A stretch of 62,000 nucleotides of DNA, taken from NCBI RefSeq assembly GCF_004010195.1, contig NC_057749.1, forward strand, positions 17,005,750 through 17,067,749, written 5' to 3'. Position numbers and translations under genes: made by a program. This DNA is from Chiloscyllium plagiosum. Taxonomy: Eukaryota. The notes under the pieces are model-generated. The model was not told where the DNA came from. It searched no databases and was given only the letters and a program-made list of their open reading frames with translations. Every line of letters begins with the position of its first letter. Position 1 is the first letter of the stretch. This document shows positions 1-60,002 of the stretch, piece after piece.

Positions 1-96
1 GGGAAGGAGGGGGTTTGGGGATGGGGTCTGTGTTGTGTCTGTATCGGGAGATGGGGACATTGTATAAAGAACAGCAAGAGATCAAGATCGATTTAC

Positions 97-332
97 CTGA
101 ACTTCATGTGTGCCTGAGAGAGGTAATCGTTTACTGAGCCCAGGTGGCAGTTTTCCTTGTCGAACATTTTACTGGAGGCAGCATGTTGTAAGACCTTAGC
201 AATGGAGCCCAGATTCCTTCTCTGATCGGTGGTCAGACCCCCACCCCCAGCCGAGATGTCGATGATATCAAATGCGTCAGGGGCCACGATGGCTGGGTTC
301 ATGTAGCGGTAATACAGCAGATTACCGACAAT
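97..332 (-). CDS. IQGAP1: IQGAP1 exon ~29 (236 nt)
   Basis: tttcag|[62 protein letters not shown]|gtaaat. Confidence 0.96.
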
Positions 333-3300: not shown

Positions 3301-6300
3301 AGACTTAGACAGATTTGTGAGCTTCAACAGAGTCCAAGGTTATGGGGAACAGGTTGGAAAGTAGAGTTAAAACTCTGATCAATGAGCCATGGCTTAATGA
3401 ATAACGGAACAGGCTTGAGGGCCGTGTAGGGAATGGATTTGAATCACACATTCCAGGCGGACTAGCATCTCCAGAAAGCACCTGTCCTCACCCCCAGGTG
3501 TGCTTCACTTTCCCCTAAAGGCCATTCACCCAGCTCTCCCGAATCCCGGGCCCACTTCACACGTCTCCCCTGGCATCATGTTGCTGCCAGGGCTGGAGGC
3601 AGCACCAGTAAAAGTGAGCAAGCAGGGCACTTGTCTTCATTGGTTGGTGCTCCAGGAAGACAGGAGTCTCACCAGGAGTGTATGGAGCAGCCCACTGGGT
3701 AAGGACGTTTGCCGTGTGTCTCTCTTACCTGGCCTCTCCTGTCTGTGATTCCATCTGGTTCACCCAAGCCTTGTAAATATCCACAGGGTCTGTCTTGATG
3801 TTCATTGACCGTTCCTCAATGATCTCCTTGACAACAGGAGCCAGGATCTGTCGGAGGGCATTCTGTCCTCGTGCTCCACGGTTGAAGCTGACCACCATCT
3901 TAATAACAGTGGGGTTCCCTGTGATGATCTCATGGAGCTGATCGACCTTTGACCTGCAGAAAGCAGAGAATGTGCCAGGGTCAAAATCACTTTCACAGGG
4001 ATCTCTTACAGTGTTTCCCTCAGAGGCCTGTATGTACAGAGAGGAGAAAGTGAGGTCTGCAGATGCTGGAGATCAAAGTTGAAACTTTATTGCTGGAACA
4101 GCACAGCAGGTCAGGCAGCATCCAGGGAACAGGAGATTCGACGTTTCGGGCACAGGCCCTTCTTCAGGAATGTATGTACAGAGAGTCCATCTCACACACT
4201 CCCTGACAAGTGCCAATGTCACCAAACAAAATCCCACACGAGTCTCTCTCTTCTGACATCACCCTTGGACAGTGGCCTTCTGCCTGGACTGCAAACCCCA
4301 TTCTCTGGTAGCAACATAGCAGTGAATAGACAATCCCCTCCCTACAACGTTGTAAATCTTACCGACAGCAAATGGGCTGCAGCCTTCAGCTCATCACCAG
4401 CTTCTCCAAGGCAACTGGAAACGGGTAATAAATGCTGGCCCAGCCTATCACATCACAGCCCGTGAATTAACAAAAGCAATCTCAAACACCTCAGTCTGAA
4501 CCTGTCCCTCCAACCCTCAATCCCATTTCCAAACCGGATATTCATCAGGCTCTTTTTGACCGGATTTACCTGCCAGTGACTGATCTGGAATTAGGGGGTA
4601 AGGAGCAGTAAAGGGCAGATGTGGGCAGGAACCTACTTGATTTCTTCTTGGAGGGCAGTCTTGAAGAGTTTCAGCAGCAGGTACTCCTCTCTCTGGTTCG
4701 AAGCATAGTTATAGAGCGTGAAAATGACCGAGTCCATGAACTTAGTGGATTTATTCTGAGGCATCTGAAAGATCAGCTTGGCCAGGTAGGTGGGGTTAGT
4801 CTGGAGAGAGAGAGCGAGAGAGAGAAAAACACACCCAATGTGACACTGATTTCCTACTCATTGAATGGAACCGTTGACTTTAAGTTGCCTTTTCCTAACT
4901 CCCTCCTGTTTTCTCATCAATGCTGTGCTGGATGACAGGGTTCCAGGCTGGACAGACTCAGACTGTCTACTGGACCCAGTAGGGGGTGGCTCACACACGA
5001 CTGAGTTGGAAATTGATTATCACTGCAAAAGATGACCCCAGACATTTTCTACCGGAAGGATTTGCATTTTCATAGTCCCCTTTCACAAGTTCAGGGCATT
5101 GCAGAGCTCTTCACAGTTAATGAGGTATTGTTTTCCAAGTGCAGTCTTTGCTGTAGTTTGGGAAAAGCAGCAGCCAATTTGTGCACAGTAAAATTCCACA
5201 TGAGATGGAATGAGATAATGACCAGATTGTAATGCTGGTTGAGGGATAAATATCGGCCCCAAGACACTGTTCACATGCGGGAAGCTGGGGCTTCTTAAAA
5301 GACCTTGTGCCTGACAGTTCAGCAGCCACTCAGTACTGCATGGAAGAGCCAAGCTGTAATTTATGCTCCAAATGTGAGAGAGGGACTCGAACCCACAATC
5401 TTCTGGTTCAGAGGCAAGAATGTTACACCCTGAGCCAAAGGTGACAACTTCAAAATGGGTGGGAAGAGTCAGTGATGGAGGGAGAGTGTACCCGAGGGAG
5501 CGGACCCAGTTGGGTGGGAAAGAAGCCAACTGGAGTTTACCTGGAGCAGGTAGAAGAGGTTCTGATAGGCCTCCAGCTTCATCCGTTTCTCCTTGCTCAA
5601 GGCCTTCAGGCCTCCTTTCTGCTTGTTGATCTGCATCATGTCTGACAGCTGCTCTTTGTTCTTCCGGGTCAGTTTCTTGCTGTGAGACACTACTTCCTGT
5701 AACGTTAGAAAGGTACCGTCAGCCCATCCAACCCATCCCTGCCATTGGTCACTATCTCATCATGTGACCAAGAACCTGGCTCTGGACTGGGGACAGTGGC
5801 TCACAAGCAGAGGCCTCCCAGCTCCCAACCATGTCATAATTTTCTGGGATTTCCCTGATATTCCCATTGTCCAGTCAATATTCCCAGGGTGATATATTTC
5901 CGGTGTGATTTTCTTACTGTTCAGGACAAAATTCCTGTTGTCTGGGGCAATACACCTGATGGTAGTCCCTGACCAATTACCCTGGCGCTTGGGACAAAAT
6001 TCCTGTTAGCAGGAATAGGATTACCAGTACCTGGGATGGTTATTGCTGGCACTGTATTTCCAAAGAGTTATTCCCGTCAGCTTCATGAATGATATTCCTA
6101 TCGCTGGAAATGGTGTTCCCATACTGGTATTCCCAGACTGATATTTCAAGGGACCTTTCCATTATTTTGGAATTGATATCTCATTACTAGGGACAACACT
6201 CCCATTATTCCAGAACCATATTCCCATTTCAGGAAGTGGTACTCCCAACAATCTGGGAGGGGGGAGTGATATTCCCACTATTCTGTGTATGATGCTTTGC

Positions 6301-12300: not shown

Positions 12301-15300
12301 ATGTCTTGCAATACTGAGAATTGGGAAGTAGAGTGAGAGAAAATTATTTCAATGCAGAGAGTAAGAAAGAGGAGGAAGAACTTGGATATGGAGAATGAGA
12401 GGAAAGCCCCCTTTAATCTTTTACTTTGATCAATACAATTCTCACTGGCTTCCCCATTTCTGAAGTAACTTGGTTTTAATTTGAGACGTGAATCACAAGG
12501 TGGGATGGAAGAGTGTCCTGTACCTGGATTTCTTCCTTGCTCAGTTGTGTGTTGTTCTGGACAAACCCAGATGGCTGCTCCCAGCTTCCTTGCTTCGTCA
12601 CCAGGTTATGGTAATAATGGTAACCTCCCTTCACCCAGTGCCTAACCCACTGGCTGCCGTTGTCACCTGCAGGCCAAAAGGGAACACATTCACACATTGC
12701 GCCATGTTGCCGTGGACCAACACACCCAATGCCAGACACCTCGACCTCCATCATCCAAAGGACACCACTTCATCCCGGCTCTCATCAAATGCACCTTCCA
12801 TCCCCGTAAACACAGAGCTTTCCTTCACTGACCATTGGGCACAATGTAACCCAACGACTGAGAAACTAACCAATTGATGCCCCATGGTTGACACCCAATG
12901 ACAAAGGGACCACTGTCCAATGTCACAGCTACCCCTGTGAAAGCGCTCAGATTAGATCAGAGTGTCAATGATATCAACACATTGTGCATATGATCAGCAA
13001 ATAAAATTTTGGCACTGTCAGTCCAACATCTTAGAGTCAATCCAGTGCCAGGATCCAGTTCATTTTAATATGAACTCAGCCATATAACCCAACGTCTGGG
13101 CAGCATGGTGGCTCAGTGGTTAGCACTGCTGCCTCGCAGCGCCAGGGACCCAGGTTCGATTCCAGCCTCGGGTGACTGTCTGTGTGGAGTTTGCACATTC
13201 TCTCTGTGTCTGTGTGGGTTTCCTCCAGGTGCTCCTGGTTTCCTCCCACAGAACAAAAATGTGCAGGTCAGGTGGATTGGCCATGCTAAATTGTCCAAAA
13301 TGTCAGGTACATTAGTCAGAGGGAAAAGGGTCTCGGTGGGCTACTCTTTGGAGGGTCAGTGTGGACTTGTTGGGCTGAAGGGCCAGTTTCCATACTGTAG
13401 GGAATCTAATCAGCCAACTTATGGAGATGAGCATTGATAGCCTGAAAATACAACAGCTGTGTCAGGTCCATGTCTTTTTCATTCAGGTTTGGGATGTGGT
13501 AGTTTTAGCAAGGCTAGTATTAATTACCCAACCAATGCTGTTTCTTGGGAACATGGTATGGACTCTTCTAGTTTGACCCTGATTGGAATGGCATTGAAGA
13601 GTGTCAACCATGGCCTTGATGAATGGTGGAGTAGGCTTGAAGGGCTGATTGGCCTACTCCTGCTTCTATTTTTATTAATATGTCCTTCTAACCCTTTCCA
13701 CTCCTACAATCAGTGACTGTTTCGAGGATTACTAATGGAAGAGAAATCACAGCAGTGCCACTCACTCACCTTCTGCCTTCTTGGCCTGTTTAGCCTCAGT
13801 CAGTTCCTGCCGATAGGTGTCATCACATTCAGAGGTGACTCCGTATAACCCAACATCTGGAGATCGCAGCGCACTCAGTATCTGGACTGTGTCTCCATGG
13901 TCTACTGCCTCATTGATAGTCAGAATGCCCAGAGAAACTAGACAGGTTAGAGAGAGAGATCACATTGTGTCACAAACCTCTCAGGGTTCAGATCTCTGGT
14001 CATTACAAACCAATCATCACATGCTGATGATCCAGAGGAGATAGTGCATTGTCAGGTCCAGTACTGAGTTCTGAAGCCCAGGACTATTTCAGGCTTTGTG
14101 TAACAGCATGAAATGTTATAATCAGTTCCAATCCGAGCTGGATTAGGCCAAGGAGTTTGTGTGTGCGTGCATGTGGGTCACAATCTGTTTATACACGTGT
14201 GTGTGTGTCTTGGTGCATGATCAGATATCAGCAGAGGTGAGTGCAGGTGTTACAGTGAGCACATGTCTGCAAGTATGTTCTAGTTGAATGTGGTACCATG
14301 TGTAAGTGTGCGTGTTGGTGTGTGTTCTAGTGAGTGTGTCAGCATTAGTATATGTGTTGTTGAGTACATACTGACAAACTTACAGCATAAGTGTGTGCGT
14401 GTTACTGAGTGGAGGCATATTCTGAGTGTGTCCCTGAGTGTGAGAGTGTGTCCCTGAGTGTGAGTGTGTGTCCCTGAGTGTGACTGAGTGTGTCCCTGAG
14501 TGTGAGCGTGTGTATTGGTGCTCAGTGAGCAATGACAGGATCAAATGTCACCCACTCACACGCAGTTCCGTGATTAACCCGAAGATCAGCTCATGGGCAT
14601 TGCAGCCTTGCGACTGGGAAGGAATTGTGAGAAATGTTGGCTGCATGGATTTTAGTAAAGCCTTTGACAAAGTTCTGCATAGTATTCAGGGGAACACCAG
14701 CAGTGTTCCACGGGGATCAGTACAGAGTCCACTGTTGTTTGTCATTTATATAAACGATTTGGATGAGAATTTAGGAGTTAGTGAGTTTGCAAATGACACC
14801 AAAATTGGTGGTATAGTGGACAGGGACGATGGTTGTCTAGGATTACTAAGAGATCTTGATCAATTGGGCCAATGGGCTGAGGAGCAGCAATGGAGTTTAA
14901 TTTGAATAAATGCGAGGTATTGCATGTTGGTAAAACCAACAAGGGCAGGGCTTATACAAATGATGGTCGAACCCTGGGTAGTGTTGTAGAACAGAGAGAC
15001 TTTGGGGTTCAGATACATGCTTTTGAGTTTTGCATCATAGGTAGGCAGGGTGGTCAAGGTGTTTAGCATGCTTGCCTTCACTGCTCAGACGACTGAGTTT
15101 AGGAGTTGGGACGTCATGTTGAGATGGTACAGAGCATTGGTGAGGCCTCTTCTGGAATACTGTGTTCAGTTCTAGTCACCCTGGGAATGGAAGATTTGAG
15201 TTATAAGGAAAGGCTGGATCGGCTGGGACGTTTTTCATTGGAGTATAGGAGGTTGGTAGGTAACCTTATGGAGGTTTATAAAGTAAGGAGGAGCATAGAT

Positions 15301-18300
15301 AAGGTGAATAACAAGGATCTTTTCCCTCGAGTGGGGGAGTTCAAAACTAAGGGACACATTTTTAAGATAAGAGGGGAAAGAGTTTTCACACAGAGGGTGG
15401 TTTGTGTGTGGAATGAACTGCCAATGAAAGTGGTGGATGCTGGTACAATTACAACATTTGAAAGACGTTTGGACAGGTACATGAATAGGAAAGGTTTAGA
15501 GGGAGATGGACTAGTTTAGTTTGGGAAACTTGGTTGGCATGGACGAGTTGGACCGAAGGGTCTGTATCTGTGCTGTATGACTCTATGAGACAGGTGTTTT
15601 CTGATTGGTTCAGGCCACCTGGGCAGAATGAGATTTATTTTACATTAAGGGGTGACATGGTGGTTCACAGCAGCAGGGTCCCAGGTTCGATTCCAGCCTC
15701 GGTCGACTGACTGTGTGGAGTTTGCACATTCTCCCCGTGTCTGCGTGGGTTTCCTCCGGGTGCTTCAGTTTCCTCCCACAGTCCAAAGATGTGCAGATCA
15801 GGTGAATTGGTCATGGGAAATTGCCCATAGTGTTAGGTGCATTAGTCAGAGGGAAATGGGTCTGGGTGGGTTACTCTTTGGAGGGTCGGTGTGGACTGGT
15901 TGGGCCGAAAGGCCTGTTTCCACACTGTAGGGAATCTAATAAAAAAAATTAAGGTCACATTTGAAGGTTGTCCTGCTGGATCTATTTTGTGGCAGGAAAC
16001 AGCAGAAACTCACATTTCTCTGCATCTTGTGTGTCCTTGTTGGATTTCCAGACGGTGTCCTGAATTTCGTCGAGCCAGAGCACGGCAGAATCATCCTGAG
16101 TCTCCTGTGGAGAGTCAAAGTCATCAGTGGCTGCACTGTCAGGCTGAGGGAGAAACTACCCACACTGGGCTAACTGGGAAATCAGGGGCACCATGGTGGT
16201 TCAGTGGTCAGCACTGCTGCCTCACAGCGCCAGGGACCTGGGTTTGATTCCAGCCTCGGGCGACTGTCTGTGTGGAGTTTGCACATTCTTCCTGTGTCTG
16301 TGTGGGTTTCCTCTGGGTGCTCTGCTTTCCTCCCACGATCTAAAAATGTGCAGGTCAGGTGAACTGGCCATGCTAAATTTCCCAGAGTGTTCAGGGATGT
16401 ATAGATTAGGTGCATTAGTCTGGGGTAAATGCAAAGTAGTAGGGGAATGGCTCTGGGTGGGTTGGTCTTTGGAGGGTCCGTGTGGACTGGCTGGGCCAAG
16501 GGCCTGTTTTCACGCTTTAGGAATTCTATTAAATTGAAAAAAAATTTAAAAGTGTGGCTGACCATTGTTCTCAATAGTCAACAAAACCCCAATAACAGGC
16601 ACTGTCCTCAACTTAAATAAAACAAAGAACTGCAGATGCTGAAACAAAACAGAAATTGCTAGAGAAGCTCAGCAGATCTGGCAGCATCTCTAGAGAGAAA
16701 GCAGAGTTAACATTTCGAGTCCAGTATTCAGTTCTGAAGAAGGATCGCCGAACCCGAAACGTTAATTCTGCTTTCTCTCCACAGATGCTGCTGGAACTGC
16801 TGAATTTCTCCTGTTTTTGTTACTGTCCTATACTTGCTGTCAATATTTGCCAAAAGAAATGTTCACTTTTAAAGTGTATTTTACAACGTCAGGGGCTCTC
16901 AGTCCTGAAGTATTTCTGAAGCATGATTAGTATTGCGATATTTGGACAGCATGAATTTTTAATTATTTTGTGCATTGGGCAAGAAAAAGAATCATGTTTG
17001 AATTTCTTTTTGATTATTGTTGCTGGTTTACTTCCTTGGTTTACTGAATCATAGGTGATATTTATGCTGTAAATATGCATCTGTGAAATATGTTTGTTTC
17101 AACTGCGTGGATGAAATCTTCCACTCATTTTAATGCATGTCGCTAAAACATGTTGAGCGGCACAGTGGTTAGCACTGCTGCCTCACAGTGCCAGAGTCCC
17201 GGGTTCAATTCCCATCTCAGGCAACTGTCTGTGTGGAGTTTGCACATTCTCCCTGTGTCTGCGTGGGTTTCCTCCCACAGTCCAAAAATGTGCAGGTTAG
17301 GTGAATTGGCCATGCTAAATTGCCTGTAGTGTTAGGTGAAGGGTAAATGTAGGGGAATGGGTCTGGGTGGGTCTTTCTTCGGAGGGTCAGTGTGGACGTG
17401 TTGGGCTGAAGGGCCTGTTTCCACACTGTAACTAATCTAATCCTAATGTTCCTGTAAATTTATCTGCAAGGAGCCAGTCATTTCAACTGTAGCACTTTAT
17501 TGAGAAGGTCAGCTGACTTCTAGACTTATCAGGAAAGTAGGTCAGTCAGAATGTTAATAGATCTTAAATAATTGACAAAACCAATGGTAAAACAGAGAAT
17601 AATTTCCACGTGAGGGCGTTGAGATATGGAGCAAGGATGTTGAAATCAGATTTCATAGGCACTTTTAAAATGTAGTTGGATATTTGGTGAATTGGAAAAA
17701 AACATCAGGTGTGGAATAAGGTGGACAGCTCTGGTATGACTTGCTAAATGAACTTCTCATGTACTTTCAGAATCTGCATTAGGCTGTCATCACTGAAGGT
17801 GCTCCATCATCACTAATGGGTGGGGTGGGGTGGGCTGGGCTGAACAGGCTAACTTCACTAACTCCACCAGGGGGTGCCCCAACAGCCATGATACACTGTT
17901 TCCACCAGGGGGCGCCCCGACAGGCTGCAGCACACTGGCTCCACCGGGGGGGAAGGGGGTGGGGTTTGGACCCTGTTCTTTGAGGGACAAAGACCCCTCA
18001 GTTACAGCCATTGAGTTAATGGGCCTTGTACCACAACCATATGTCATTGACTGTTCAGAGACACAGGCTTCTTTGTATCCAGTGAGTGCCAGAAACAGAC
18101 ATTTCTCACACCGAGTCTCACATGGACAGCTGTTTCCAAAGATGCTCATTTCTGAACTGTAATTCTATCCCTCTTCTTACTGATGCTGGCTTTTAGAATG
18201 GTTTTGCGTCCAATGGTAACTCAGTAACAACTTGCAGTTTTAAAAAAACACTAAGATGTAGATGTGAGGGCTGTGGTGAGATCCTGCGTTTGGACCCAAC

Positions 18301-21300: not shown

Positions 21301-24300
21301 AACACAAACAGGACCACAGGGATCTCTAGATGATTCCCAGAGGCACACCTGAGTACAGGAATAGGAGGGTAAGGCAGATGGATGCAAAACACGAAAGGTG
21401 GTAAGATGGAGGTCTTTCGATTCCTATGAGTTGCTCTGAGAAGATGACATCTGTATAAGGCGGATTGGTTGCCTGCCTCTGAACAGAGCTGGCACTGAGC
21501 ACCTTTCAGAGGGTTCTGCAGGTGCTGTTGGGAGTGTTTTAAACAAACTCAGCAGAGATGTGGGAACCAAGAGAGAATATTAGTGAGGAATACCAGGTTG
21601 CACAAAATACTAGGAGAGATGGGTAACACTTGTATAGAGAATAGAAAGTCAATAGGTGGAGTCAGAGGAAGGGAAAAAGTAATAAAGTTTAAATTAAGAT
21701 TACTGTGCATGATCACCCCCTACAATGTTTACGGGAAATCACAGATTAATCTTCCAACTGATTGAGTTGGGATTCCCATGGTAACAGGGTCTACCCAGCT
21801 GGAACTCAACACCTGAGCCTTTTGTAAAGCAGACTTAGAGGAGGGGGAAGAGGGTTGGCTTAGTGGTATTGTTGCTAGACTAGCAATCTAAAGCTCCAGG
21901 TTCAAATTCACTGCCCCCCCTCCCCCCACCCAAACTAAAATATAAAGCAGACTCAAGGGGTTTTTGTGGTAGAGTCGTGAGGATGGTGCTGGAAAAGCAC
22001 AGCTGGTCAGACAGCATCCGAGGAGCAGGAGAGTCAATGCTTCAGGGATAAGCTTTAGTGGTAGTGTCCCTACCTCTGACCCAGGAGGCCTTGATTTAAG
22101 TCCCACCTGTTCCAGAGAAGTGTCTGAACAGATTGATTAAAAATATGTATAATAGTTAATTTAAAAAATGAGAGGCATTATAAGTATGAGGCATTTTGGT
22201 TAGAAAAACATTGAAAGACAATATAAAATTGGGGGTACAATTCTAAAGGGGTTGCAGGAGCAGAGAGTCCTGGGTGTAAATGTGCACAGATCATTGAAAG
22301 TGGCAGACAGATGGAGAGAGCACAGTGTCCTTGGTTTTCTTAATAGGGTCACAGAGTAGAAAGCATGGAGGTGATGTTGAACTTGCACAAGACACTGATT
22401 GAACATCAGCTAGAGTATTGTGTATAATTCTGGGCACTACAGTAAACACATTAGAGAGAATGTAGAAGAGATTGAGAGAACAATTCCAGCGATGAGAAAC
22501 TTCAGTTATGAGGGCAGATTGGAGACATTGGGATGAATCCCCCTGAAGAGGAGAAGGCTAAGAACTGAATCGGAGAGAATTTTTAAAAATCCTGAGAGAC
22601 CTGATAGTGTAGCTGGGGAGAAACTGTTCCCACTTGTAACAGGATCAAGGATGAGAGGGCGCAGGTTTAAAGTGATTTATAAATGTAAGAAATGTGATGA
22701 GAAAAAAAAATCCTTTTGTGGTTTGAGTCTGAAATGCGCTGCCTGGGAGCCTGGTGGAAACAGGTTCAACTGAGGAGGGAATTGGATTTAATTCAAAACG
22801 TCACAGGTATACAGGGGAAAGACAGGAGAATGACACAGTCACAATGCTTGCTGTCGATCTGGGGTAGGCATGATGGGCTCAGTGCCTCTTCTTGCACTGT
22901 AAATATTCTGATTCTGTTACTGTTTGACTCTGGTGGCATCATAATATATCCCTGACCCGCAGACATTCAGTCTGTCTCACACACATGTAGGTCTATGGGG
23001 TGAATTTACATTTACAGATTTCTAGATACATTGTATTTTGTTCGAAAAGCACACAATCTGTAGGCATGATGTGGAGGAGTCAGTGTTAGACTGGGTGGTC
23101 AAAGTTAAAAATCACACAACACAGGTTTATTTGGAAGCACTAGCTTTTGGAGCGTTGCTCCTTCAACAGGTAACTAGCGAGATAGGATCAAAGGACAAAG
23201 AATTTATTGTAAAAGATCAAAGTGTCATACAACAATTTTATAAATTCCTACTTTGGAAATAGAACCAGTCTGACTCAAGATTGGAATATAGACAGACTCT
23301 AACCTCATACCTTTAATGCATTGTCTGAGCTGAGCTGTCACCTTTTCTTTTATAAAACCTTAAGTTATCTTGGGAATGTCACTTGAAAGAAGTTCTGGGA
23401 TTTACATATTAATGAATCAAAACCTGCAACCCATTCTAAGTGATTAAGACTTAACAGCAATCCAGGTTTGTTCAATACATTGCATCAGTTATCTGACACT
23501 TTGATCTTTTACACTAAATACCGTGTCCTCTGATCCTGCCCCACTAGCTACCTGATGAAGGAGCAGCGCTCCAAACGTTTGTACTTCCAAATAAACCTGT
23601 TGGACTATAACCTGGTGTTGTGTGATTTTTAACTGTCTTACACACACCAACAGGGGTCACTAGATAGGAATGAAGGGCAGGAACCCTGGTTGTTTGACCC
23701 TTTACTATCCAAAGCATAACTTCAGCACACACCTGCTCTCACATTCAGTCTTGACTGAGATTGGACCTGGGCTTGGGCCCACACCCATTGGAGAATTCAG
23801 CCACTGAACCCAAGGGGAGATTTAATACAAAGTGCCTGCAGTCTTGAGGCAATAATTTAGTCTGCCAAGAGTCTGTCTCTCTCTACCCACCCACCCTCCC
23901 CGTCACCCAGTGGTTTAATTTGGTTGCTGTGTTACTGGGATTGGCACAGAGAGACACAAAGGAATCATTCACTAACTAAACAGTCACCTGGAACTAGAAC
24001 AGACAGCTTTGTTCAAGGCGGGACTCCAACACAACTCAAAACACAACGCCCCAGTTCCAAAGCTGAGTCAGACAGAGGAAGAGGGAGTAATGGACGGAAG
24101 GGGCAAAAAGGGAAAGATAGGGGGGGGGGGGCANNNNNNNNNNNNNNNNNNNNNNNNNNNNNNNNNNNNNNNNNNNNNNNNNNNNNNNNNNNNNNNNNNN
24201 NNNNNNNNNNNNNNNNNNNNNNNNNNNNNNNNNNNNNNNNNNNNNNNNNNNNNNNNNNNNNNNNNNNNNNNNNNNNNNNNNNNNNNNNNNNNNNNNNNNN

Positions 24301-27300: not shown

Positions 27301-30300
27301 GGGATTAGAGACCCTCAGTTGTTGCAGGGGGTCACACAGCGAGGGTAGTGGGACACACTCACTGGATACATGGCCCGGGTGCTCCCTTCCAGTATTCACT
27401 CCTCCCTCTTACAGTCATAGAGTCATAGAGATGTACAGCACAGAAACAGACCCTTCGGTCCAACCCGTCCATGCCAACCAGATATCCCAACCCAATCTAG
27501 TCCCACCTGCCAGCACCCGGCCCATATCCCTCCAAACCCTTCCTATTCATATACCCATCAAAATGCCTCTTAAATGTTGCAATTGTACCAGCCACCACCA
27601 CTTCCTCTGGCTGTTCATTCCATACACGCATCACCCTCTGCATGAAAACGTCCCTTAGGTCTCTTTTACATCTTTTCTCTCTCACCCTAAACCTATGCCC
27701 TCTAGTTCCGGATTCCCCCCATCCCAGTGAAAAGACTTTGTGTATTTACCCTATCCATGCGCCTCATGATTTTATAAACCTCTATAAGGTCACCCCTCAG
27801 CTTCCAATGGTCCAGGTAAAACAGCCCTAGCCTTTTCAACCCTATAGTTCAAATCTCCAACCTTGCAACATCCTTGTAAATCTTTTCTGAACCCTTTCAA
27901 GTTTCACAACATCTTTCCGATAGGAAGGAGACCAGAATTGCACGCAATATTCCAACAGTGGCCTAACCAATGACCTGTACAGCTGCATCATGACCTCCCA
28001 ACTCCTGTACTCAATAATCTGACCAAGAAAGGAAAGCATACCAAACGCCTTCTTCACTATCCTATCTACCTGCGACTCCACTTGCAAGGAACTATGAACC
28101 TGCACTCCAAGGTCTCTTTGTTCAGCAACACTCCCTAAAACCTTACCATTAAGTGTATAAGTCCTGCTAAGATTTGTTTTCCCAAAATGCAGCCCTCGTA
28201 TTTATTTAAATTAAACTCCATCTGCCACTTCTGTTGTAATCTGAGGTAACTGTCTTCGCTGTCCACTACACCTCATCTGCAAACTTACTAACTGTACCTC
28301 TTATGTTCACATCTTCACTGATGATAGTGTGTTCCCAAAATACCCCCAAAGATTCCATTCCTTCCTTATTCCCTGGTGAATCCTATGCAGTCAGACAGTG
28401 GTCAAGGGCAGATGGGGAATGTCTGGAGTGTCACATCTCCAGAGAACAGCTGTGGCTTGTAACTCCCTGCTACCCTTCCAGAACACAATAGCCAGGTGCT
28501 ACAACCATAATGTGCACAGCAAGGTCCAACGGTTAGTGATTTCAGTCACCACCAAAACTGATTTAGCTATTGGCCAAGGTTGGATTTCAGCTAGGCACCA
28601 GAACACCCCCTTTCTTTTTTAGCTGGAGCTTTGTAGGATCTTTAAACAGTCATAGAGTTGTACAGCACGGAAACAGATACTTTGGTCCATTTAATCCATG
28701 CTGACCAGATATCCGAAAATAATCTAGTTGCATTTGCCTGAACCAACACTCCAACCCCCCTGCACCCTGCACTGGGTGAGAGACTAGATAAACACTCCCC
28801 CCCGCACCAGAGTGAGAGACTGGGTAAACACTCCCCCAGCACTGGAGTGAGAGACTGGGTAAACACTCCCCCAGCACTGGAGTGAGAGACTGGGTAAACA
28901 CTCCCCGCAGCACTGGAGTGAGAGACTGGGTAAACACTCCCCCCAGCACCAGAGTGAGAGACTGGGTAAACACTCCCCCCAACACCGGAGTGAGAGACTG
29001 GGTAAACACTCCCCCAGACCTGGAGTGAGAGACTGGGTAAACACTCCCCCCAGCACCGGAGTGAGAGACTGGGTAAACACTCCCCCCAGCACCAGAGTGA
29101 GAGACTGGGTAAACACTCCCCCCAACACCGGAGTGAGAGACTGGGTAAACACTCCCCCAGACCTGGAGTGAGAGACTGGGTAAACACTCCCCCCAGCACC
29201 AGAGTCAGAGACTGGGTAAACACTCCCGGTAAACACTCCCCCCAGCACCAGAGTCAGAGACTGGGTAAACACTCCCCGCAGCACTGGAGTGAGAGACTGG
29301 GTAAACACTCCCCCCAGCACCAGAGTCAGAGACTGGGTAAACACTCCCCCAGCACTGGAGTGAGAGACTGGGCAAACAGCTCAAACTCTGTGATGGGGAT
29401 GAAGAGGAGACCCTCAGATTCAGAGGATGGCTGAGTCCCTCACTGAGCTCAGCTGACACAGTGTTATGGAGGCTACCGCAATGCAGAAATAATTCAGGTT
29501 AAAATCAAAGTGGAAGTATCCCAATGCTTGAATTAATTTTGCAACTTCACCTCCTGTGAGAGAGTGCGGAACCTGTTGCTACTGCTGCGGGAGAAAGGTC
29601 CATAAATGGAGATTTGAAAGTTTTATTTTAAGCTCACAAGCTGGATATCAGGGATTTGATTCCCAACCTTTACCAGAACCAGTGAACCAGCCAAAAGCCA
29701 CTGCTCAAAAAGGCAGCTCTGCAGGGAACTGCCCTGGACAGGCCCCAAGGTTATATGAATCTCTGCCAATCATGATGCAGATTTGTCCAGATTGAGAGTG
29801 CTCAGCATGCTCAAAACAACAACAGTATTCACGTTAACTCTTTGATGTTATAAGCACACCTTGCATTTCTTTGCAGCTTCCAGGCACATTTCCTTGTTTA
29901 CATTTGTCCAGGACAGGGGAAAGGCAGGGCAGTGGGACTTGCTGCATTACTATCTCAGAGAGCCAGAGTGGCCTTAATGTGCTGTAACCATTCTGACTCT
30001 ATAATCAAATTACATTGCCTCCACTAACAAACAGGATTTGGAAATATCACTAAACTTTATACTTTCCAGGAAATTTCAAGCTTTGTGGAAAAGCGCCTGA
30101 TTTTTATTTTACAACTTGAAATGAATTTGTTATTGATTTGTGATGTATTAAAGCTGCTGCGAATTGGTACAATTCATATTAACTGGTACTGGAATTACAA
30201 ATGGATAAAACCAGGAGGGAGGGGAAGTTGGGCAACAGCACGGCAACAAGGGAGGAAGAGTGAGAGGGAAGGCAGCACGGTGACAAAGGAGAGAGATAGA

Positions 30301-33300
30301 GAGCAAGAGAAAGAAATAATGAGGGGAGCACAGTGATGAGGAAACGAGAGAGAGGAGAGCACAGTGATGAGAGAGAAAGAGAGAGAGAAAAAGGAACACA
30401 GTGATGAAGGAGAGAAAGAACAATGACAAGGGTGAGAAAGGAAAACATAATGATGAGGTAGAGAGAAAGAGAGAGATAGATAGATAGAGAGAAGAACACA
30501 GTGACAAGGATGAGAGACACACAGACAATTCTATTAATAGCCATGGAGGGAAGAAATGACAGGAGTGTCCAGTCTTATTCTGCCTTGATGACCATGTGAG
30601 CACTCTGTGGCTCTATATTCAGGTGCTGCTGCTGCAACTCATCCAAACTGAACCAGACTAATACAGCACAGAGCCGCGAATGAACCTAGATCAACGCGAG
30701 CAGCAACCTTCAGATAGCCCATACTCTGGGGAGTTGCCATATCCCACCATTGGGCTGGAATTCTCTGGAATTAGCTCCTGTCTTAAACAAGCTCCAGACA
30801 CATCAGTGTGGAGTCACAGGAAAGTTGCTGCAAAGTTATCAGTGATTGAGCCTTGAACCGAGTGAACACAAACCGATCAGTGAGAGATGGTGTGGGGTCT
30901 GATCAGTGCAGTGGGACTACTTCAGGTCATTCCTGAGGTGGTCAGAGATCAGGCATGTGAGGGATTGGCCAAGGAATACGAGAGGACTCCCTGCGGTGGG
31001 TTGCTGTTGGATTCCGTCTGTGTGTGAATTATTCCTGAATTTCATACCTGAGCCTTCTCTCTCTTGGCCCGAATGAGGGTCTCTTGGTAATGCTCAGCCA
31101 CAGGGGGTAAGACATCAGCCAGCTTGGCACTCGGCAGGAGCAGTGCATTCAGAGTCTTCTGAGGATCCCCTTCATCCACAGCCTCATTAATCAGGCCAAT
31201 CGCCTTAATTCCTGGGAAATACAACAGCAGATCAGAAGCAGCCTTAAACTCAGGCTGGGAACATACAGGTACACATATAGATGCGTGTGCATACAGACAC
31301 ACAGATGGTGACAAACTGAACAAGCAGTCCTGAGGATCAAATCACCCATGACAGAGCTGTAGCCTCTTTTCCTTCCTCCAAGAATGGGATCTCTGCACAG
31401 CCAGTTGTTCTCAGTGCCAAGGTTGGGGGCGGTGCGGTGTGTGTGGAATGCAGGCAGCAATCAGCCAGAGTATTAGGCAAGAGGGTGATTAGGTTCCCTT
31501 GTGATATCTCTCTTTGGAAATTGGAGCAGTAGGCCATTCGACCAATCAAGCCTGCTTCCCTATCAATCAGATCTTGGCTTCTGAATGGGCCATCTTAATG
31601 ACTGCTCTTGGAAACTTCAACGCATTGTCAGTCAAAGACCTGTCCAACCCAGCTTTGAGTAAATTCGTCACCACTCACTGACCACCCAGCCATTATCAAA
31701 CCTTCTGGAGATGAAGTTCCTCCTCATCTCCATCCCTAAAGCAGAATGCCTTATTTTTAAAATCTGCCCTGATTTCTAGAGTTCCCTCTGATAGGGGGCA
31801 TCTACCCGTCAAGTCACCTTAGACTCTTATTTTTAAGTAAGATCAGCTTTTACTCTCTGAAATTCCAGCAAGTACAGAACCAACTTACTCAACCCTTCCT
31901 CACAAGCCAACTCCTTCATCCCAGATATCAGCCTGGTGACCCATTCTCTGAACTACATCCAATAGAGTCCACCCCCTTCACCTGTTTTTCTCATCAGCTT
32001 GTTCAGTGATGTTAGTACACACCTCTAGAGCAAGTGGGATTTGAACCCAGGGCTCTCAGTCCAAGGATAGGGATGCTCGCACTGCACCACAAGACAGCCT
32101 TACATTTACTTCATAATTTTTAACAAAGCATGTTATTTAATCTATTATTCTCATCAATCTCATTCACAGAGGTTGTTATTTAGCAGTGGAGCAGGTGGGA
32201 CTTGAACTAGGCCTCCTGGTCTAGAGGTAGGGATACTATCACTGCACCACAAGAGAGCCCCCTTAATCCCCTCCTTAAGTGAGGAGATGATATGAAATTT
32301 AGCTGCAGTGTCCCCAATATCCACTACTATTGTAACAGGTGTCCCCTACTTTCACAAGCCTTCTCTCTTTGCTATTCAGGCCAATATTCCATTTGTCATC
32401 CCTCTTACTTGTTTTATGGTTGATTCTCACAGGACAATTTAAGATCGGAAGAATGGACATTTGAAAACACTGACAATTAAGACAGGGCTAAAGGTTACAA
32501 TGCATAGACTCTCCTCCTGCCATTCTACATTCACATGGTATAATTGGCTAATCACAGGATCAACAGGGTAGCTCAGTGATTAGCACTGCTGCCTCACAGC
32601 ACCAGGGACCTCTGTTCGATTCCAGCCTCAGGCGACTGACTGTGTGGAGTTTGCACATTCTGGGTTTCCTCCAGTGTTCTGGTTTCCACCCACAATCCTA
32701 AGGTTTGCAGGTTAGATGAATTGGCCATGCTAAATTGCCCATAGAGTTCAGGGATGTGTAGGTAAGGTGCATTAGCCAGGGGTAAATATAGGGTAAGGGA
32801 ATGGGACTAGGTGGGTTACTCTTCTCAGGGTCGGTGTGGATTTGGTGGGGTGAAGGGCCTGTTCCCACGGTGTAGGGTTTCTGTGAATCTCATCAATTTG
32901 TCAACAATAGACCCAGGCATGAGGAGAGGGAAAGCGTACAGGAGTAGCTTGGCTTCCTGTTCCCATTGTCTACTTACGATCATGTTCCTCTTGGACTACT
33001 ATGTTCACCTGGTCAACCGATCCCTGGATATCGTTCCAGGTGAGAAACTCATTGCTCTCTGCTCGCGCTTTGGCCTTCATTCTCATCAGCTCATCCACAT
33101 ACCTGTCACACACAAAGGGCACCGTGAAGATCAAAGCTGAGGGGTGATCTCAATCAGTGTGTTTCGGACATCTCAAAAGGATCTCACTGAGTCGAATGAA
33201 TTGTAAAACCTTAAAACAAGAGCCAGTTTATTAAGGGGCAATGTTGAGAAACAGGAAGTGGAAATGTGGAACTCTCTCTGTCTCTGTGTTGTTGAGTTGG

Positions 33301-36300: not shown

Positions 36301-39300
36301 TTGATAGCTCACAATGACCAACCTGGTGGCTCTGCTGTTGCAGGGTGGACAGCTCCTGCTGGTACAGCTCAGCTGCAAATGGGTGCACCTCTGGTAACTG
36401 GGCATCGCGATTCATCAGCTCTGTCACCGTATCCTCAGCTACTCCTTTACGGATCGCTGCATTGATTCGAGATACAGCCTCCAGCACTGAAACAAGAGAT
36501 TCAATTAAATTCCGTTCTGAATTAGTAATTGGATCAAGGGTTACTGGGAGAAGGCAGGGGAATGGGGCTGAGAAACACACCAAATGGGGAGCACACTCTA
36601 TGGGCAGAAGGTACTCATTCTGCTTCCATACCTTATGGGTTAATGGATCCTAAATTATGGTCATTTCAGAGTCTACAATATCCCAAAATTAATGTCAAAG
36701 TTGCTGTTGTAAATGGAAGAAATTCCAATTTCAGGCACAGCCTATCTCCATCAAACAGTCCCAGGACAGGGACAGCATGCAGTTAAAGACAGAGTAAAGC
36801 TACCTCTGCATTGTCCTCCAAACACTTGCAGAGGAAATTGACACTGCTCGTATGTTGGATCAGATGGTCAACTGACGCTCATCTACTTGATTTTGATTTT
36901 ATAAAACAGTTTGAAGAAAGGCAGTAAACTCTCCTTGTGTTCTGCTCGACCTACTTCCCTCAGACATCAAATAATTAAACATTGTTTTGAGGAGCTCACT
37001 GATCATAAAATGACTATTGCACTGAAACGCTTTTAGATTTGTTGAGAAATATCTGTAATTTTTAAATATATATTTCTTTCATGTGGGTGATTCCCTGTTA
37101 ATAATACTAAGGGTGTACATCAATGTGATGGACTACGGCAGCTCACCATCACCTTCGAAAGGGCAATTAGGGACAGGCAGGGAATGCTGGTCCTGTCATT
37201 AAAAACATAAGTCGCTGATAAGGTCCAGGATTAAAGAGCGTGACTGAACTATAAATGCTTTCCTCTAGTTTATTTTCTCTTTGACTGAACCCACACCCAG
37301 GCTCCAAACCTAATCAGAGAACAAAGACGTGGTGACTACTCACTTTTCCTGAACCGACGACTGTCTTGATTGGCTTGGTCAACTCCGACCTGTAACTCCT
37401 CCTTGGTCAGAGGATCCTTTGAGCCCTGCTCCTGTTCAGCAGAATGTGATGGGGATTTAAGGGAGAATAGAGATTAGCAACATGGAGCAACTTATTGGGA
37501 GCTCTTTGATATATTTGAAAGCAGTATCAATCCCAATGTCCTGTCTCTCTAAACACTGTAGCAATCCCAGTAACAGTGCATCACCCTCTTGGCCACCCTG
37601 AGTGTTATTATACCGAGTGATATTTCATCATTCCTGGCCTGTGAAGGGTCTGACTCCTCCTGTTCTTACCTCAACGTCCTGAAAATTTTTCTCCTTCAAG
37701 TTAACATCTAATTCCTTTTTCAAAGTTACTATGAAAAATGATTTCACTAGCTTTTCAAGTGAGATATTTCAGATTGTAATAACACCTCACTTTCCCACTC
37801 CGTCGTTTTTGCCAGATATTCGTTACCTGAGCTTTCAGCTGTTTGTCAGAGGACAGCTGCTTGAGGTACCAATCACAGTTGTCCAACTCCACATCTCGCA
37901 GGCCCAAGGCTGGTGACTTCAGGGCGTTGTAGAGAGCTGTCCCATCTTGTTGCTCCAGAGCTCCATCTACGTTCTTCAGGCCATTCTGTACTGAAATCAC
38001 AATAGGACAATGGGCCAAAGGGCACATTACCCCCTGGATGGGAAAGCTCTACATAGCTCTTCAAACCAAACCAAACATTGGTAGATTTAAATGAATGAAA
38101 ATAAACTCAATACAGTTACTAGGAAGAACTACCCTTACTTAAGGGTGAGAAACCAAATGCAATTATCCTACAGCCCAACTCTCTTAATGAAACATGATGT
38201 TTCTATCTGTCCAGCATTGCCCCATTTCCCCAGAGTCCCTCGGGATTTCAGGCTCCCGTTGTGAGCAGTTCTGGGAGAAGCATCATGGGATGTGAATAAA
38301 AAACCTTTATTAAATTTTCTTTCAACTGGTCCATTGGGTTTCAAATTGACTTTGGGAAGGTGGGCATCCAGAGGGTGGCCATGTTGAACAACCACTGGTG
38401 GGAGAGAGGGGCTGGAGGAGTGGGAGGTGATGTGGTGGTACTTATAGGAAGATGACTGATGACCGTTGTCGACCATCGTTAGAATTAAATGCACTTGGAA
38501 GAGCCACCATGAGTCTGTCAACAATTATAACCCTTTGAAATGATCAAAGGCTTGTGTTGCCTCCTGATGGTGCACCGAATGGTGACAGGAAGACGGAGTT
38601 GGTCAGCAACAAATCTTTGCTACCACCAGTGTTGAACAGTAATAGAGTCACAGATCTCGATGCAGTGTGAGGGACAGTTACCTAAAACAATGCATTGTGT
38701 TCAACTAGGGATCGGGCTGTTTTGGATGTAATGAGGCAAGTTTAATAAAGGATTTATGAAATAGTCACCATAACATTATAGGGTGGGATGGTGGCTCAGT
38801 AGGGTTGCATGGTGGCTCAGTGGTTAGCACTGTTGCCTCACAGCACCAGGGTCCCAATTCGATTCCAGTCTCGGGTGACGGTCTGTGTGGAGTTTGCACG
38901 TTCTCCCCGTGTCTGCGTGGGTTTCCTCCGGGTGCTCCAGTTTCCTCCCACAATCACTAAGATGTGCAGGTCAGGTGAATTGGCCATGCTAAATTGCCCA
39001 TAGTGTTAGGTGCATTAGTCAGAGGGAAATGGGTCTGGGTGGGTTACTCTTTGGAAGGTTGGTGTGGACTGGTTGGTCCAAAGGGCCTGTTTCCACGCTG
39101 TAGGGAATCTAATCTAATCTAATTTAGCATTTAGAATGTAGCTTCAGAGTGAGAAACCTGGGTTGGTAATAATTGTGCTAAGCTTAAATAAGGGTAATTA
39201 TAAAGGAATGAGGGTTATGTTGGCTGGAGTGGAGTGGGAAAGGAGTTTAGTTGAAAAGATAGTTGCAGACCAAAGCAGACATTTAACAAAACAGATCATA

Positions 39301-57147: not shown

Positions 57148-57183
57148 AATCGACGTTTCGGGCAAAAGCCCTTCATCAGGAAT
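57148..57183 (-). ncRNA. Minimal hammerhead ribozyme motif in the 3' region of a Penelope-like element
   Basis: AUUC-CUGAUGA-A-GGGC(UUUU)GCCC-GAAAC-GUC-GAUU; core intact, one U.U mismatch in stem I. Confidence 0.78.
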
Positions 57184-57724: not shown

Positions 57725-58516
57725 AGGGGTGGGGAGGGAAATATATCCCTGGTGGTGGGGTCTTTTTGGAGGTGGCAGAAATGTCGGCGGATAATTTGGT
57801 TGATGCGAAGGTTGGTAGGGTGGAAGGTGAGCACCAGGGACTTTCTGTCCTTGTTACGGTTGGAGGGGTGGGGTCTGAGGGCAGAGGTGCGGGGTGTGGA
57901 CGCGATGCGTTGGAGGGCATCTTTAACCACGTGGGAAGGGAAATTGCGGTCTCTAAAGAAGGAGGCCATCTGGTGTGTTCTGTGGTGGAACTGGTCCTCC
58001 TGGGAGCAGATACGGCGGAGACGGAGGAATTGGGAATACGGGATGGCATTTTTGCAAGAGGTAGGGTGGGAAGAGGTGTAATCCAGGTAGCTGTGGGACG
58101 ACGCTGTCTGCTGAGTAACCCAGTGGCCAGGAAGGAATGGTGACTGATGTATCAGGGCAATGGAAGGTTCCAATGGAACAGTAAATCTCGAGGGAGTCTC
58201 CTCTTTAATTTATTCACAGGACATTGTAGCAGTGAGCACAGGGCAGCTTTCCAACTGCTGCTTTTGCTGGGTAAAGAGACACTGGAACATTAAGGAACTG
58301 CTGGAAACATCGAGCAGATCAGTCAGCATTCGAAAAGGGAAACAAAAACAGACTGGTGCTCCTTGTGAAAATGAAGGCTCCAATCTGAGGCACCAACTCA
58401 TCTTCCACTGACATTACCATACCAGGCGGCTGGCACTGTTGCCTCTGGGACAGGAGGCTTTGGATACAAAGCCCACACCAGAGGCTTCTGCAAAAATCTG
58501 AATGATCTTTTCTTGT

Positions 58517-59963: not shown

Positions 59964-60002
59964 TCCTCAAATCTGCTCTGCCTTTCAATAAGATCATGGA
60001 TA

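What the first reader, a model, noticed from the sequence alone, without database searches (positions are those of the whole stretch)
4029..4185. Young 127-bp mobile insert that is essentially a hammerhead ribozyme, sense to the IQGAP1 pre-mRNA near the exon 26 acceptor
Seen: a perfect 15-bp TSD (TGTATGTACAGAGAG) brackets a non-coding unit. Its minus strand begins with an intact hammerhead: stem I AUUC/GAAU, CUGAAGA, an extra A, stem II GGGC/GCCC, then GAAAC GUC, with the predicted cut between 4140 and 4139. Compared with the Penelope 3' end at 57148-57183, changes within the motif fall at N7, loop II and one stem I base, while the core and stem II are identical. Known: Penelope-like elements carry minimal hammerheads whose loopless ACGU helix III needs dimerisation, and an extra residue after A9 is tolerated. 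Inference: this is either a non-autonomous ribozyme-SINE (retrozyme-like) family moved by Penelope machinery or an extremely 5'-truncated copy. It sits ~90-215 nt upstream of a 3' splice site and could cut or alter the host transcript.
Basis: partly seen in the sequence, partly recalled or inferred. Interest (0 to 1): 0.8.

Follow-up and report, generated by a model that had tools for sequence, protein, structure and literature searches.

The report
Young Penelope-element stub with hammerhead ribozyme
The 127-base insert is a very recent stub copy of an abundant Penelope-like jumping gene that carries that element's usual small hammerhead ribozyme, so it is an ordinary kind of thing, although this shark family ends its copies at the ribozyme with unexplained precision.

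Summary
A perfect 15-bp target-site duplication brackets a 127-bp insert, and its minus strand opens with a minimal hammerhead (HHR) sense to an IQGAP1-like gene. The insert lies 91-217 nt upstream of an exon.

It is not a separate ribozyme-SINE. It is collinear and identical with the HHR-to-"tail" segment of an autonomous Penelope-like element (PLE: RT plus C-terminal GIY-YIG). That family has about 24,000 near-identical copies in this 3.56-Gb genome.

The family shows published PLE hallmarks:
- two alternative 3' ends 35 nt apart (the "tail"; the window copy has it);
- frequent head-to-head inverted pairs;
- variable TSDs;
- ORF-less 194/224-nt tandem HHR arrays (retrozyme-like).

The insertion is young. 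An exact empty site occurs in another run labelled the same species and in a related species.

One thing I did not find in the three PLE papers I read in part: copies do not end randomly. 22 of 30 sampled arms start within a few bases of the HHR's first nucleotide, and none starts at the predicted cleavage site. The cause is untested; run-off at an RNA 5' end is my leading guess.

Cutting of the host transcript by a lone minimal HHR is unlikely and was not tested.

The parts
4029..4043 (.). Target-site duplication, copy nearer the exon (TGTATGTACAGAGAG)
   Evidence: Exact 15-mer found only here and at 4171-4185. The empty-site contigs of X6 and X10 carry a single copy of it (joints 4028>4171 with 15 shared letters, and 4026>4171).
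4171..4185 (.). Target-site duplication, distal copy
4044..4170 (-). PLE stub insertion: from the first bases of the hammerhead to the end of the 35-nt PLE 'tail'
   Evidence: Identical over 127 nt to 7 of 30 genomic copies, and over its first 92 nt to 16 of 30. 100% identical over 93 nt to the segment that follows an RT + GIY-YIG ORF in L074. Absent from X6 and X10 contigs.
4136..4171 (-). Minimal type-I hammerhead motif: stem I AUUC/GAAU, core CUGAAGA, extra A, helix II GGGC/GCCC with loop CUGU, GAAA, loopless palindromic ACGU, C17. Predicted cut between 4140 and 4139.
   Evidence: Sequence read. Pattern test. The monomer MFE fold gives stems I and II only. It shows the four min-HHR features listed by Cervera and de la Pena 2014. 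No Rfam hammerhead hit.
4044..4076 (-). PLE 'tail': the optional extension between the two alternative 3' ends of the family (short end about 4077/4078, long end about 4043/4044)
   Evidence: In 30 tail-anchored copies, 16 end at +124..126, 10 at +87..91 and 4 in between. This matches the 30-40 bp tail and the two RT initiation sites in Frangieh 2024 and Craig 2021.
4086..4091 (-). AATAAA hexamer inside the insert, sense to the host gene
   Evidence: Function not tested.
3729..3953 (-). Host exon (RasGAP-related domain of an IQGAP1-like gene) downstream of the insert
   Evidence: Pfam RasGAP. RNA-like contig of X6 at depth 154 against intron depth 8. IQGAP1 is the best PDB match.
57149..57183 (-). 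Hammerhead of an older, longer copy of a related PLE subfamily (83% identical over 93 nt) that continues upstream of its HHR
   Evidence: (family D19).

Best explanation
The insert is a recent, still polymorphic, dead-on-arrival stub copy of a highly active autonomous Penelope-like element (PLE).

The PLE protein (reverse transcriptase plus C-terminal GIY-YIG endonuclease) nicked the intron with a 15-bp stagger. It primed reverse transcription at the more distal of the element's two internal initiation sites, which is why the copy has the 35-nt tail. It copied about 127-129 nt through the element's minimal hammerhead and stopped at the hammerhead's first nucleotides.

The hammerhead is the standard dimer-dependent PLE min-HHR. 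It came along as cargo and is not what defines the copy's ends.

Shown here: the insertion anatomy, the family structure, the parent ORF and the empty sites. Inferred: the order of the enzymatic steps, by analogy with the Anolis PAc element, and the inability of the stub to propagate or to cleave alone.
For: - **Abundance.** The 36-nt HHR word (up to 1 mismatch) occurs 14,978 times and a 30-nt word downstream of it 24,276 times in the own genome. Reversed controls gave 0.
- **Parent element.** Longer copies continue upstream into a 3' UTR and an ORF end with GIY-YIG (L052, 22.9 bits against cut-off 22.6). L074 holds an 893-aa open frame with RVT_1 (33 bits) and GIY-YIG (21.2 bits, just under cut-off). 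About 155 nt later comes the same HHR segment, 100% identical to the window insert over 93 nt.
- **3' ends.** There are two discrete 3' ends 35 nt apart: 16 long, 10 short and 4 intermediate of 30. This is the PLE tail, explained by two internal RT initiation sites (Frangieh 2024).
- **Inverted pairs.** 26 head-to-head inverted pairs occur among the first 100 listed places (tallied). In 8 of 8 pairs among L031-L060 one arm has the tail and the other lacks it. Both points match the published PLE anatomy (Craig 2021).
- **TSDs.** They are variable (7-15 bp, read by eye).
- **Youth.** X6 (same species label) has a contig that skips exactly 142 nt with 15 shared letters. X10 (related organism B) has a 2,761-nt contig that skips 4027-4170. 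X1 contigs stop at 4043 and 4171.
- **HHR type.** The motif has the four min-HHR features of Cervera and de la Pena 2014.
Against: - The 5' ends are not those of random truncation. 22 of 30 arms start within -11..+4 of the C of CTGAAGA, so some specific step that I could not identify sets the 5' end.
- No RNA data of the family could be examined: the raw RNA run X22 laid 0 reads.
- The sampled copies all come from the first 2.6-9.3 Mb of one contig. The two samples of 30 overlap, and 30 arms represent 22 insertion events.
- That the stub cannot be recopied rests on analogy with one lizard element, not on this family.
- No Rfam hammerhead model recognises the motif, and cleavage was not assayed.
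Confidence: 0.85

Rival explanations
1. Sub-hypothesis on the sharp 5' end (compatible with the best explanation). The element's RNA begins 4 nt before the hammerhead, at the A of TCATTCC, an initiator-like motif. Stubs are run-off cDNAs made when reverse transcription starts at the initiation site nearest that 5' end, not at the copy near the RNA's 3' end. They would then be a kind of strong-stop product, not a truncation.
For: - 22 of 30 arms end within -11..+4 and 19 of 30 within -6..+4.
- Copies that run on past the tail towards the ORF also begin there: L077, L076 and the first unit of array L088, which is 3 of 8 informative loci.
- Some 5' junctions carry 7-17 extra bases (L011, L029, L055), as expected when an RT reaches a template end.
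- In D. virilis Penelope the transcript start lies in the upstream pLTR (Weinberg et al. 2019 review, passage read).
- The match to the initiator consensus is my recollection, not a tool result.
Against: - No transcript 5' ends were seen, because no RNA reads could be laid.
- The base just 5' of A(-4) at junctions is C, CCC, G/C, G or C (by eye), so there is no consistent cap-derived G.
- 5 of the 8 informative post-tail loci begin elsewhere or are rearranged.
- In D. virilis the HHR lies downstream of a 5'-UTR intron, so the start there is not at the HHR.
Confidence: 0.3
2. Sub-hypothesis on the sharp 5' end. The end is made on DNA or during synthesis. Either the GIY-YIG endonuclease resolves the intermediate at the element's own ATT just before the hammerhead, or the RT halts once it has copied the protein-bound or dimerised hammerhead.
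For: - The Anolis PLE endonuclease prefers 5'-ATT-3', cuts both strands and cuts within its own pLTR junction (Frangieh 2024).
- Craig 2021 attributes tails to EN-mediated resolution.
- The boundary here falls in ATT.
- One inverted pair is joined exactly at the ACGT palindrome of helix III (L083), which hints at strand switching within the HHR.
Against: There is no direct evidence. ATT is a very common trinucleotide. 6 of 30 arms read through the site.
Confidence: 0.3
3. The insert belongs to a self-propagating non-autonomous family (a hammerhead SINE or solo retrozyme). Its own copies are transcribed, processed by the ribozyme and re-inserted by PLE enzymes.
For: - Discrete 5' and 3' ends and a very high copy number.
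- The same sequence forms ORF-less tandem arrays of 194/224-nt units elsewhere (L088; 224-nt spacings in the lists). This fits the animal retrozymes derived from PLE pLTRs (Li, Clavereau and Pollet 2026, Results read).
Against: - The stub is a single unit, only 57-65% of the array unit, and lacks the post-tail part. Only 914 copies of the post-tail word exist, against 24,276 of the pre-tail word.
- None of 30 arms starts at the ribozyme cut site (+28), so ribozyme processing does not define the copies.
- The stub is identical to ORF-bearing copies.
- There is no tRNA, 5S or 7SL similarity.
- In PAc the RNA needed for templating extends beyond the RT start site and is not copied.
Confidence: 0.1
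4. The intronic hammerhead cleaves or otherwise disturbs the IQGAP1-like pre-mRNA.
For: - It is in sense orientation, 186 nt upstream of the acceptor.
- The core is intact.
- The insert also carries a sense AATAAA at 4091-4086.
- Li et al. 2026 report depletion of retrozymes from introns in Xenopus.
Against: - A single min-HHR showed no detectable self-cleavage in vitro, and dimers only low activity (Cervera and de la Pena 2014).
- The PAc HHR needs the element's protein, and no RNA-seq reads ended at its cut site (Frangieh 2024).
- The only RNA-like run that covers this intron carries the empty allele (X6), so nothing could be measured.
Confidence: 0.07

Closest known systems
Minimal hammerheads of metazoan Penelope-like elements (Cervera and de la Pena 2014, PMC4209133; passages read)
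   Same: Type-I motif lying in the repeat that flanks the ORF. [quoted passage not shown] Motifs are very numerous in the genome, mostly as single elements 'probably related to truncated PLEs', and as dual motifs on opposite strands 100-700 bp apart.
   Different: In this family the inverted partners usually abut within a few bases of each other at the HHR start (13 of 26 pairs). The copies are nearly identical to one another, whereas that paper stresses extreme sequence variability of the motif within each genome.
Poseidon PAc of Anolis carolinensis: internal initiation of reverse transcription and the PLE 'tail' (Frangieh et al. 2024, PMC11167929; main text read)
   Same: Two alternative 3' ends 30-40 nt apart. 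The HHR lies about 90-125 nt upstream of them. Both target strands are used, giving inverted arms. HHR cleavage is not reflected in the inserted copies.
   Different: In PAc the ORF start lies inside the HHR. Here the likely start codon lies after the tail (not verified). That paper's main text does not report a preferred 5' end at the HHR start. The endonuclease linker here reads CX4CX2C, which Craig 2021 associates with Neptune-type PLEs. The clade was not determined here.
Animal non-LTR retrozymes (Li, Clavereau and Pollet 2026, bioRxiv 10.64898/2026.07.22.740005; abstract and Results read)
   Same: HHR-bearing, ORF-less sequence derived from a PLE pLTR. The family forms tandem arrays of 194/224-nt units elsewhere in this genome (L088).
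   Different: The window insert is one unit, shorter than the array unit, and flanked by a TSD. No circular RNA evidence was available.
SINE-like hammerhead elements of Schistosoma (Sm-alpha/Sj-alpha; seen only in passages of the review PMC6765202)
   Same: Short, dispersed, high-copy elements that carry a hammerhead.
   Different: Per the review's figure legend, those consist of a promoter followed by an HHR. The insert here shows no Rfam match to any small-RNA family and is a segment of an autonomous element.

Membership tests
Penelope-like element insertion | Collinear with an element that encodes RT followed by a C-terminal GIY-YIG endonuclease | tested here: met
   L052 ORF end: GIY-YIG 22.9 bits. 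L074: 893-aa frame with RVT_1 at 33 bits and GIY-YIG at 21.2 bits (0.00035, just under cut-off), followed by the same HHR segment at 100% over 93 nt.
Penelope-like element insertion | Optional 30-40 bp 'tail' giving two alternative 3' ends | tested here: met
   16 long, 10 short and 4 intermediate 3' ends among 30 copies, 35 nt apart. The window copy has the long end.
Penelope-like element insertion | Family shows partial tandems and adjacent inverted 5'-truncated copies | tested here: met
   26 inverted pairs among 100 listed places. Tandem units in L088. The window copy itself is a lone unit.
Penelope-like element insertion | Target-site duplication of variable length | tested here: met
   15 bp here. 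7-14 bp in other copies, read by eye. The scripted tally was not done.
PLE minimal hammerhead (min-HHR) | Core CUGANGA ... GAAA with H17, helices I and II | tested here: met
   The MFE fold gives stems I and II.
PLE minimal hammerhead (min-HHR) | Extra nucleotide between 9 and 10.1; G10.1-C11.1; palindromic 15.2-16.2 without loop | tested here: met
   A at 4160; G4159 pairs with C4148; ACGU at 4144-4141. Criteria taken.
PLE minimal hammerhead (min-HHR) | Self-cleavage, as a dimer | not testable with these tools
   No assay was possible. No RNA ends were available (X22 laid 0 reads).
Rfam hammerhead families | Match to a curated hammerhead covariance model | tested here: not met
   0 matches at gathering score in the window. 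No hammerhead hit at E up to 10 around either motif. My inference, not checked: the models expect a helix III.
Non-LTR retrozyme | Tandem repeat of HHR-bearing units without ORF | tested here: not met
   The window has one unit between TSDs. Arrays of this family exist elsewhere (L088).
Non-LTR retrozyme | Circular RNA produced by HHR cleavage and ligation | not testable with these tools
   No RNA reads of the family were obtained.
SINE | Pol III-type head derived from tRNA, 5S or 7SL | tested here: not met
   No such Rfam match at gathering score or at E up to 10.

The most novel reading that the evidence does not exclude
The tens of thousands of HHR-to-tail stubs in this shark are not failed full-length copies. 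They are a distinct product class. The PLE's RNA begins four bases before its hammerhead. The element's RT can start at the internal initiation site nearest that 5' end and run off, giving about 94- or 129-nt 'strong-stop' DNA copies. On this reading the hammerhead marks the true 5' terminus of the element, and PLE copy numbers are largely a by-product of internal initiation.
Probability: 0.3. Interest if true: 0.6.

Novelty: new member of a known kind. Interest (0 to 1): 0.33.

Why it matters
The insert itself is an ordinary consequence of Penelope-like element activity. Minimal hammerheads scattered as single truncated PLE copies were described in 2014, and the tail was explained in 2024.

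Three points have some value.

- This shark carries a very young PLE family that may still be active. It has about 24,000 near-identical copies, and this insertion is absent from another run labelled the same species. It could serve as a natural system for studying PLE mobilisation in a vertebrate.
- The copy ends give in vivo constraints on the mechanism. There are two 3' ends, always one tail per inverted pair (8 of 8), a sharp 5' end at the hammerhead start, and no ends at the ribozyme cut site. The last point supports the in vitro result that hammerhead cleavage is not part of insertion.
- The polymorphic insert lies sense-oriented near a splice acceptor, with an AATAAA inside it. That offers a simple natural test of whether such stubs affect host transcripts.

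Tried and rejected
- **Similarity search of the own genome** with the 127-bp insert found nothing, not even the insert itself, because very common words are skipped. I used exact patterns instead.
- **Rfam** gave no hammerhead hit at gathering score or at E up to 10. The only local hits were chance-level lncRNA models at E 0.19-2.8.
- **RNA evidence.** No RNA holder was listed for the stretch. The raw single-cell RNA run X22 laid 0 reads with 6% of the run read, so there is no test of expression, transcript starts or cleavage.
- **L073**, fetched as a possible long copy, was uninformative.
- **Post-tail loci.** Of the 13 short loci fetched to see where post-tail copies begin (L075-L087), 6 read N just upstream and could not be used. 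4 of the remaining 7 were rearranged or diverged.
- **Scripted tally of TSDs and extra junction bases.** Those points rest on reading by eye, and they show no consistent cap-derived G.
- **Literature.** Lunse, Weinberg and Breaker 2017 (PLE hammerheads cleave as dimers) is not held. I know it only from its citation in PMC6765202. The supplements of the papers were not consulted. Frangieh 2024 Fig. S2 (genomic and RNA-seq ends) may bear on the 5'-end question.
- **Earlier findings of this scan:** nothing for this genome. One unrelated note on another genome was not used.
- **Rejected explanations.** Chance, splice-acceptor-defined 5' end (no AG before the boundary) and hammerhead-cleavage-defined 5' end (0 of 30 at +28).
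Full report
**Observation**

The 15-mer TGTATGTACAGAGAG occurs exactly twice in the 62-kb window, at 4029-4043 and 4171-4185. It brackets 127 bp (4044-4170).

Read on the minus strand, the insert begins (A)TTC CTGAAGA A GGGC CTGT GCCC GAAA CGTC GAAT. That gives a hammerhead core with stems I and II, an extra base after A9 and a loopless ACGU in place of helix III. A pattern for this motif matches twice in the window (here and at 57152-57179, both minus) against none in 100 shuffles.

The neighbouring exon is on the same strand:
- ORF 3725-4072(-) carries RasGAP.
- An RNA-like contig covers 3729-3953 at twenty times the intron depth.
- The peptide matches IQGAP1 better than IQGAP2 (135 against 120 bits).

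The insert is therefore sense to the gene, 91-217 nt upstream of the acceptor. The exon number was not checked.

**What the insert belongs to**

The own genome (3.56 Gb) is held. The 36-nt hammerhead word occurs 14,978 times with at most one mismatch. A 30-nt word 58 nt further on occurs 24,276 times. Reversed controls gave none.

In the first 30 copies, 7 are identical to the window insert over all 127 nt and 16 over the first 92 nt. Some copies continue upstream of the hammerhead through about 230 nt of non-coding sequence into the end of an ORF. This ORF has a GIY-YIG domain (L052).

One longer copy (L074) holds an 893-aa open frame with RVT_1 and GIY-YIG. It includes a YIDD motif and a CX4CX2C linker. 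It is followed by the same hammerhead segment, 100% identical to the window insert over 93 nt.

A protein search with the ORF end found 150 scored matches out of 186,615 first-look candidates. The parent is therefore an abundant, canonical endonuclease-positive Penelope-like element (PLE).

**Family anatomy against the literature**

I anchored on the 30-mer, so that the hammerhead was not required. The 30 sampled arms (22 insertion events, all from the first 2.6 Mb of one contig) gave these results:

| Feature | Result |
|---|---|
| 3' end at +124..126 from the C of CTGAAGA | 16 of 30 |
| 3' end at +87..91 | 10 of 30 |
| 3' end in between | 4 of 30 |
| Inverted pairs with one long-ended and one short-ended arm | 8 of 8 |

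Among the first 100 listed places there are 26 head-to-head inverted pairs.

These are published PLE features. Craig et al. 2021 describe heavy 5' truncation, partial tandems, an adjacent inverted truncated copy and a 30-40-bp tail often present at one end only (passages read). Frangieh et al. 2024 show that an Anolis PLE starts reverse transcription at two adjacent internal sites whose spacing is the tail. It nicks and extends both target strands and does not need hammerhead cleavage (main text read).

The hammerhead itself shows the four features that Cervera and de la Pena 2014 list for PLE minimal hammerheads. These are the base between 9 and 10.1, G10.1-C11.1, palindromic 15.2-16.2, and occurrence in the flanking repeats. 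That paper already notes that most such motifs are single, probably truncated PLE copies, or dual motifs on opposite strands. No Rfam model recognises the motif.

**Youth**

Contigs of four runs were laid on 3700-4500:
- In X1 (same organism label, DNA) the flanking contigs stop at 4043 and 4171.
- X6 has the same organism label and looks like RNA-seq by its exon/intron depths. One 461-nt contig joins 4028 to 4171, skipping 142 nt with 15 shared letters. This is the exact empty site with one TSD copy.
- X10 (a related organism B) has a 2,761-nt contig that joins 4026 to 4171 with three other letters between.

The insertion is therefore absent from the relative, and at least one empty allele is present in another run labelled the same species. 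Heterozygosity in X6 cannot be excluded, because a filled allele would not assemble through the repeat.

**The unexpected part**

The 5' ends are not random:

| 5' end position, relative to the C of CTGAAGA | Arms (of 30) |
|---|---|
| within -11..+4 (19 of these within -6..+4) | 22 |
| +17 or +21 | 2 |
| further upstream (-31, -76, -149, three beyond -319) | 6 |
| the predicted ribozyme cut (+28) | 0 |

If ends were uniform even over only 378 nt, 22 of 30 in a 16-nt window has probability about 1e-24. TSDs abut these ends directly, so they are real insertion boundaries.

In 13 of 26 inverted pairs both arms reach the hammerhead start to within a few bases. I found no statement of this in the passages and sections I read of the three PLE papers. 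Their supplements were not consulted.

Possible causes:
- **Run-off at an RNA 5' end.** The A of TCATTCC resembles an initiator, though that consensus is recalled and not tested. Three of eight informative copies that continue past the tail also begin there.
- **Endonuclease resolution** at the element's own ATT. The Anolis enzyme prefers ATT.
- **A programmed RT stop.**

The bases just 5' of the boundary show no consistent cap-like G (by eye). No RNA reads could be laid. I cannot decide between these causes.

**SINE or retrozyme?**

Elsewhere the family forms tandem arrays of 194- and 224-nt ORF-less units. Each unit holds a hammerhead, the tail, about 65 nt beyond the tail and 6-30 nt from just upstream of the hammerhead (L088). 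The 224-nt spacings recur in the lists. [quoted passage not shown]

The window insert is not such a unit:
- It is single and TSD-flanked.
- It stops at the tail. Only 914 copies of a post-tail word exist, against 24,276 of the pre-tail word.
- It has no small-RNA head.
- By analogy with PAc, where the RNA needed for templating extends beyond the RT start site, it should not be copyable again.

I therefore read it as a dead-on-arrival product of ORF-bearing or array masters.

**Effect on the host**

Nothing could be measured, because the only RNA-like run over this intron carries the empty allele. Published work argues against cleavage by a lone copy. Single minimal motifs showed no detectable self-cleavage, and dimers showed only low activity. 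The PAc hammerhead needed the element's protein and left no detectable ends in RNA-seq. The sense AATAAA at 4091-4086 is a second, equally untested way the insert could matter.

**Verdict**

The insert is a young, polymorphic stub of an abundant Penelope-like element with its standard minimal hammerhead. It is a new member of a known kind. The family-wide precision of the 5' end at the hammerhead start is the one point worth following up.

Noticed in passing
L088 (own genome, contig C8, 1.3 kb): Tandem array of five ORF-less hammerhead units of 194 and 224 nt from the same PLE family. The units are joined through a short 'ctctctgc' microhomology between the region after the tail and the bases just before the hammerhead. 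The array looks retrozyme-like. The first unit starts at ATTCC next to unique flank.
   Followed up: partly
L031-L060 (own genome, contig C1): In 8 of 8 head-to-head inverted pairs, one arm ends with the 35-nt tail and the other without it. The two strands of one insertion event seem to use different RT start sites.
   Followed up: partly
L083 (own genome, contig C1): An inverted pair whose arms are joined exactly at the ACGT palindrome of the hammerhead's helix III, as if synthesis switched strands there.
   Followed up: no
L030, L013, L075, L078-L080, L084, L087: Runs of N begin within or next to copies of this family (often about 40-70 nt after the hammerhead start). They may be assembly gaps at inverted or tandem PLE structures, or withheld stretches. 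I could not tell which.
   Followed up: no
window 16600-16800: An older head-to-head inverted pair of a different PLE subfamily. It has a hammerhead on the plus strand (16734-16766) and a truncated partner on the minus strand.
   Followed up: partly
window 21987-22079, 39518-39612, 60029-60136: Further decayed PLE tail fragments (62-77% alike). The one at 60104-60136 (minus) keeps a hammerhead-like core.
   Followed up: no
window 44371-45069 (+): Open frame with a reverse transcriptase domain (RVT_1, E 1.4e-20). It belongs to another retroelement, repeated at 87-89% identity near 56.0-56.8 kb and inverted near 27.4-28.2 kb.
   Followed up: no
window 13100-13411, 15641-15941, 16198-16532, 17159-17442, 32570-32886, 38813-39114, 49294-49609: At least seven copies of a SINE-like repeat of about 300 bp (65-91% alike), in both orientations.
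   Followed up: no
window 58485-60100 and 28715-29414: Two minisatellite arrays, with periods of 33 nt (36 or more copies) and 36 nt (12 copies).
   Followed up: no
window 4137: Across contigs of the wider family laid at 90% likeness, most carry A where the window has T on the plus strand. This changes the second base after the cut site (stem I), as in the 57-kb copy.
   Followed up: no
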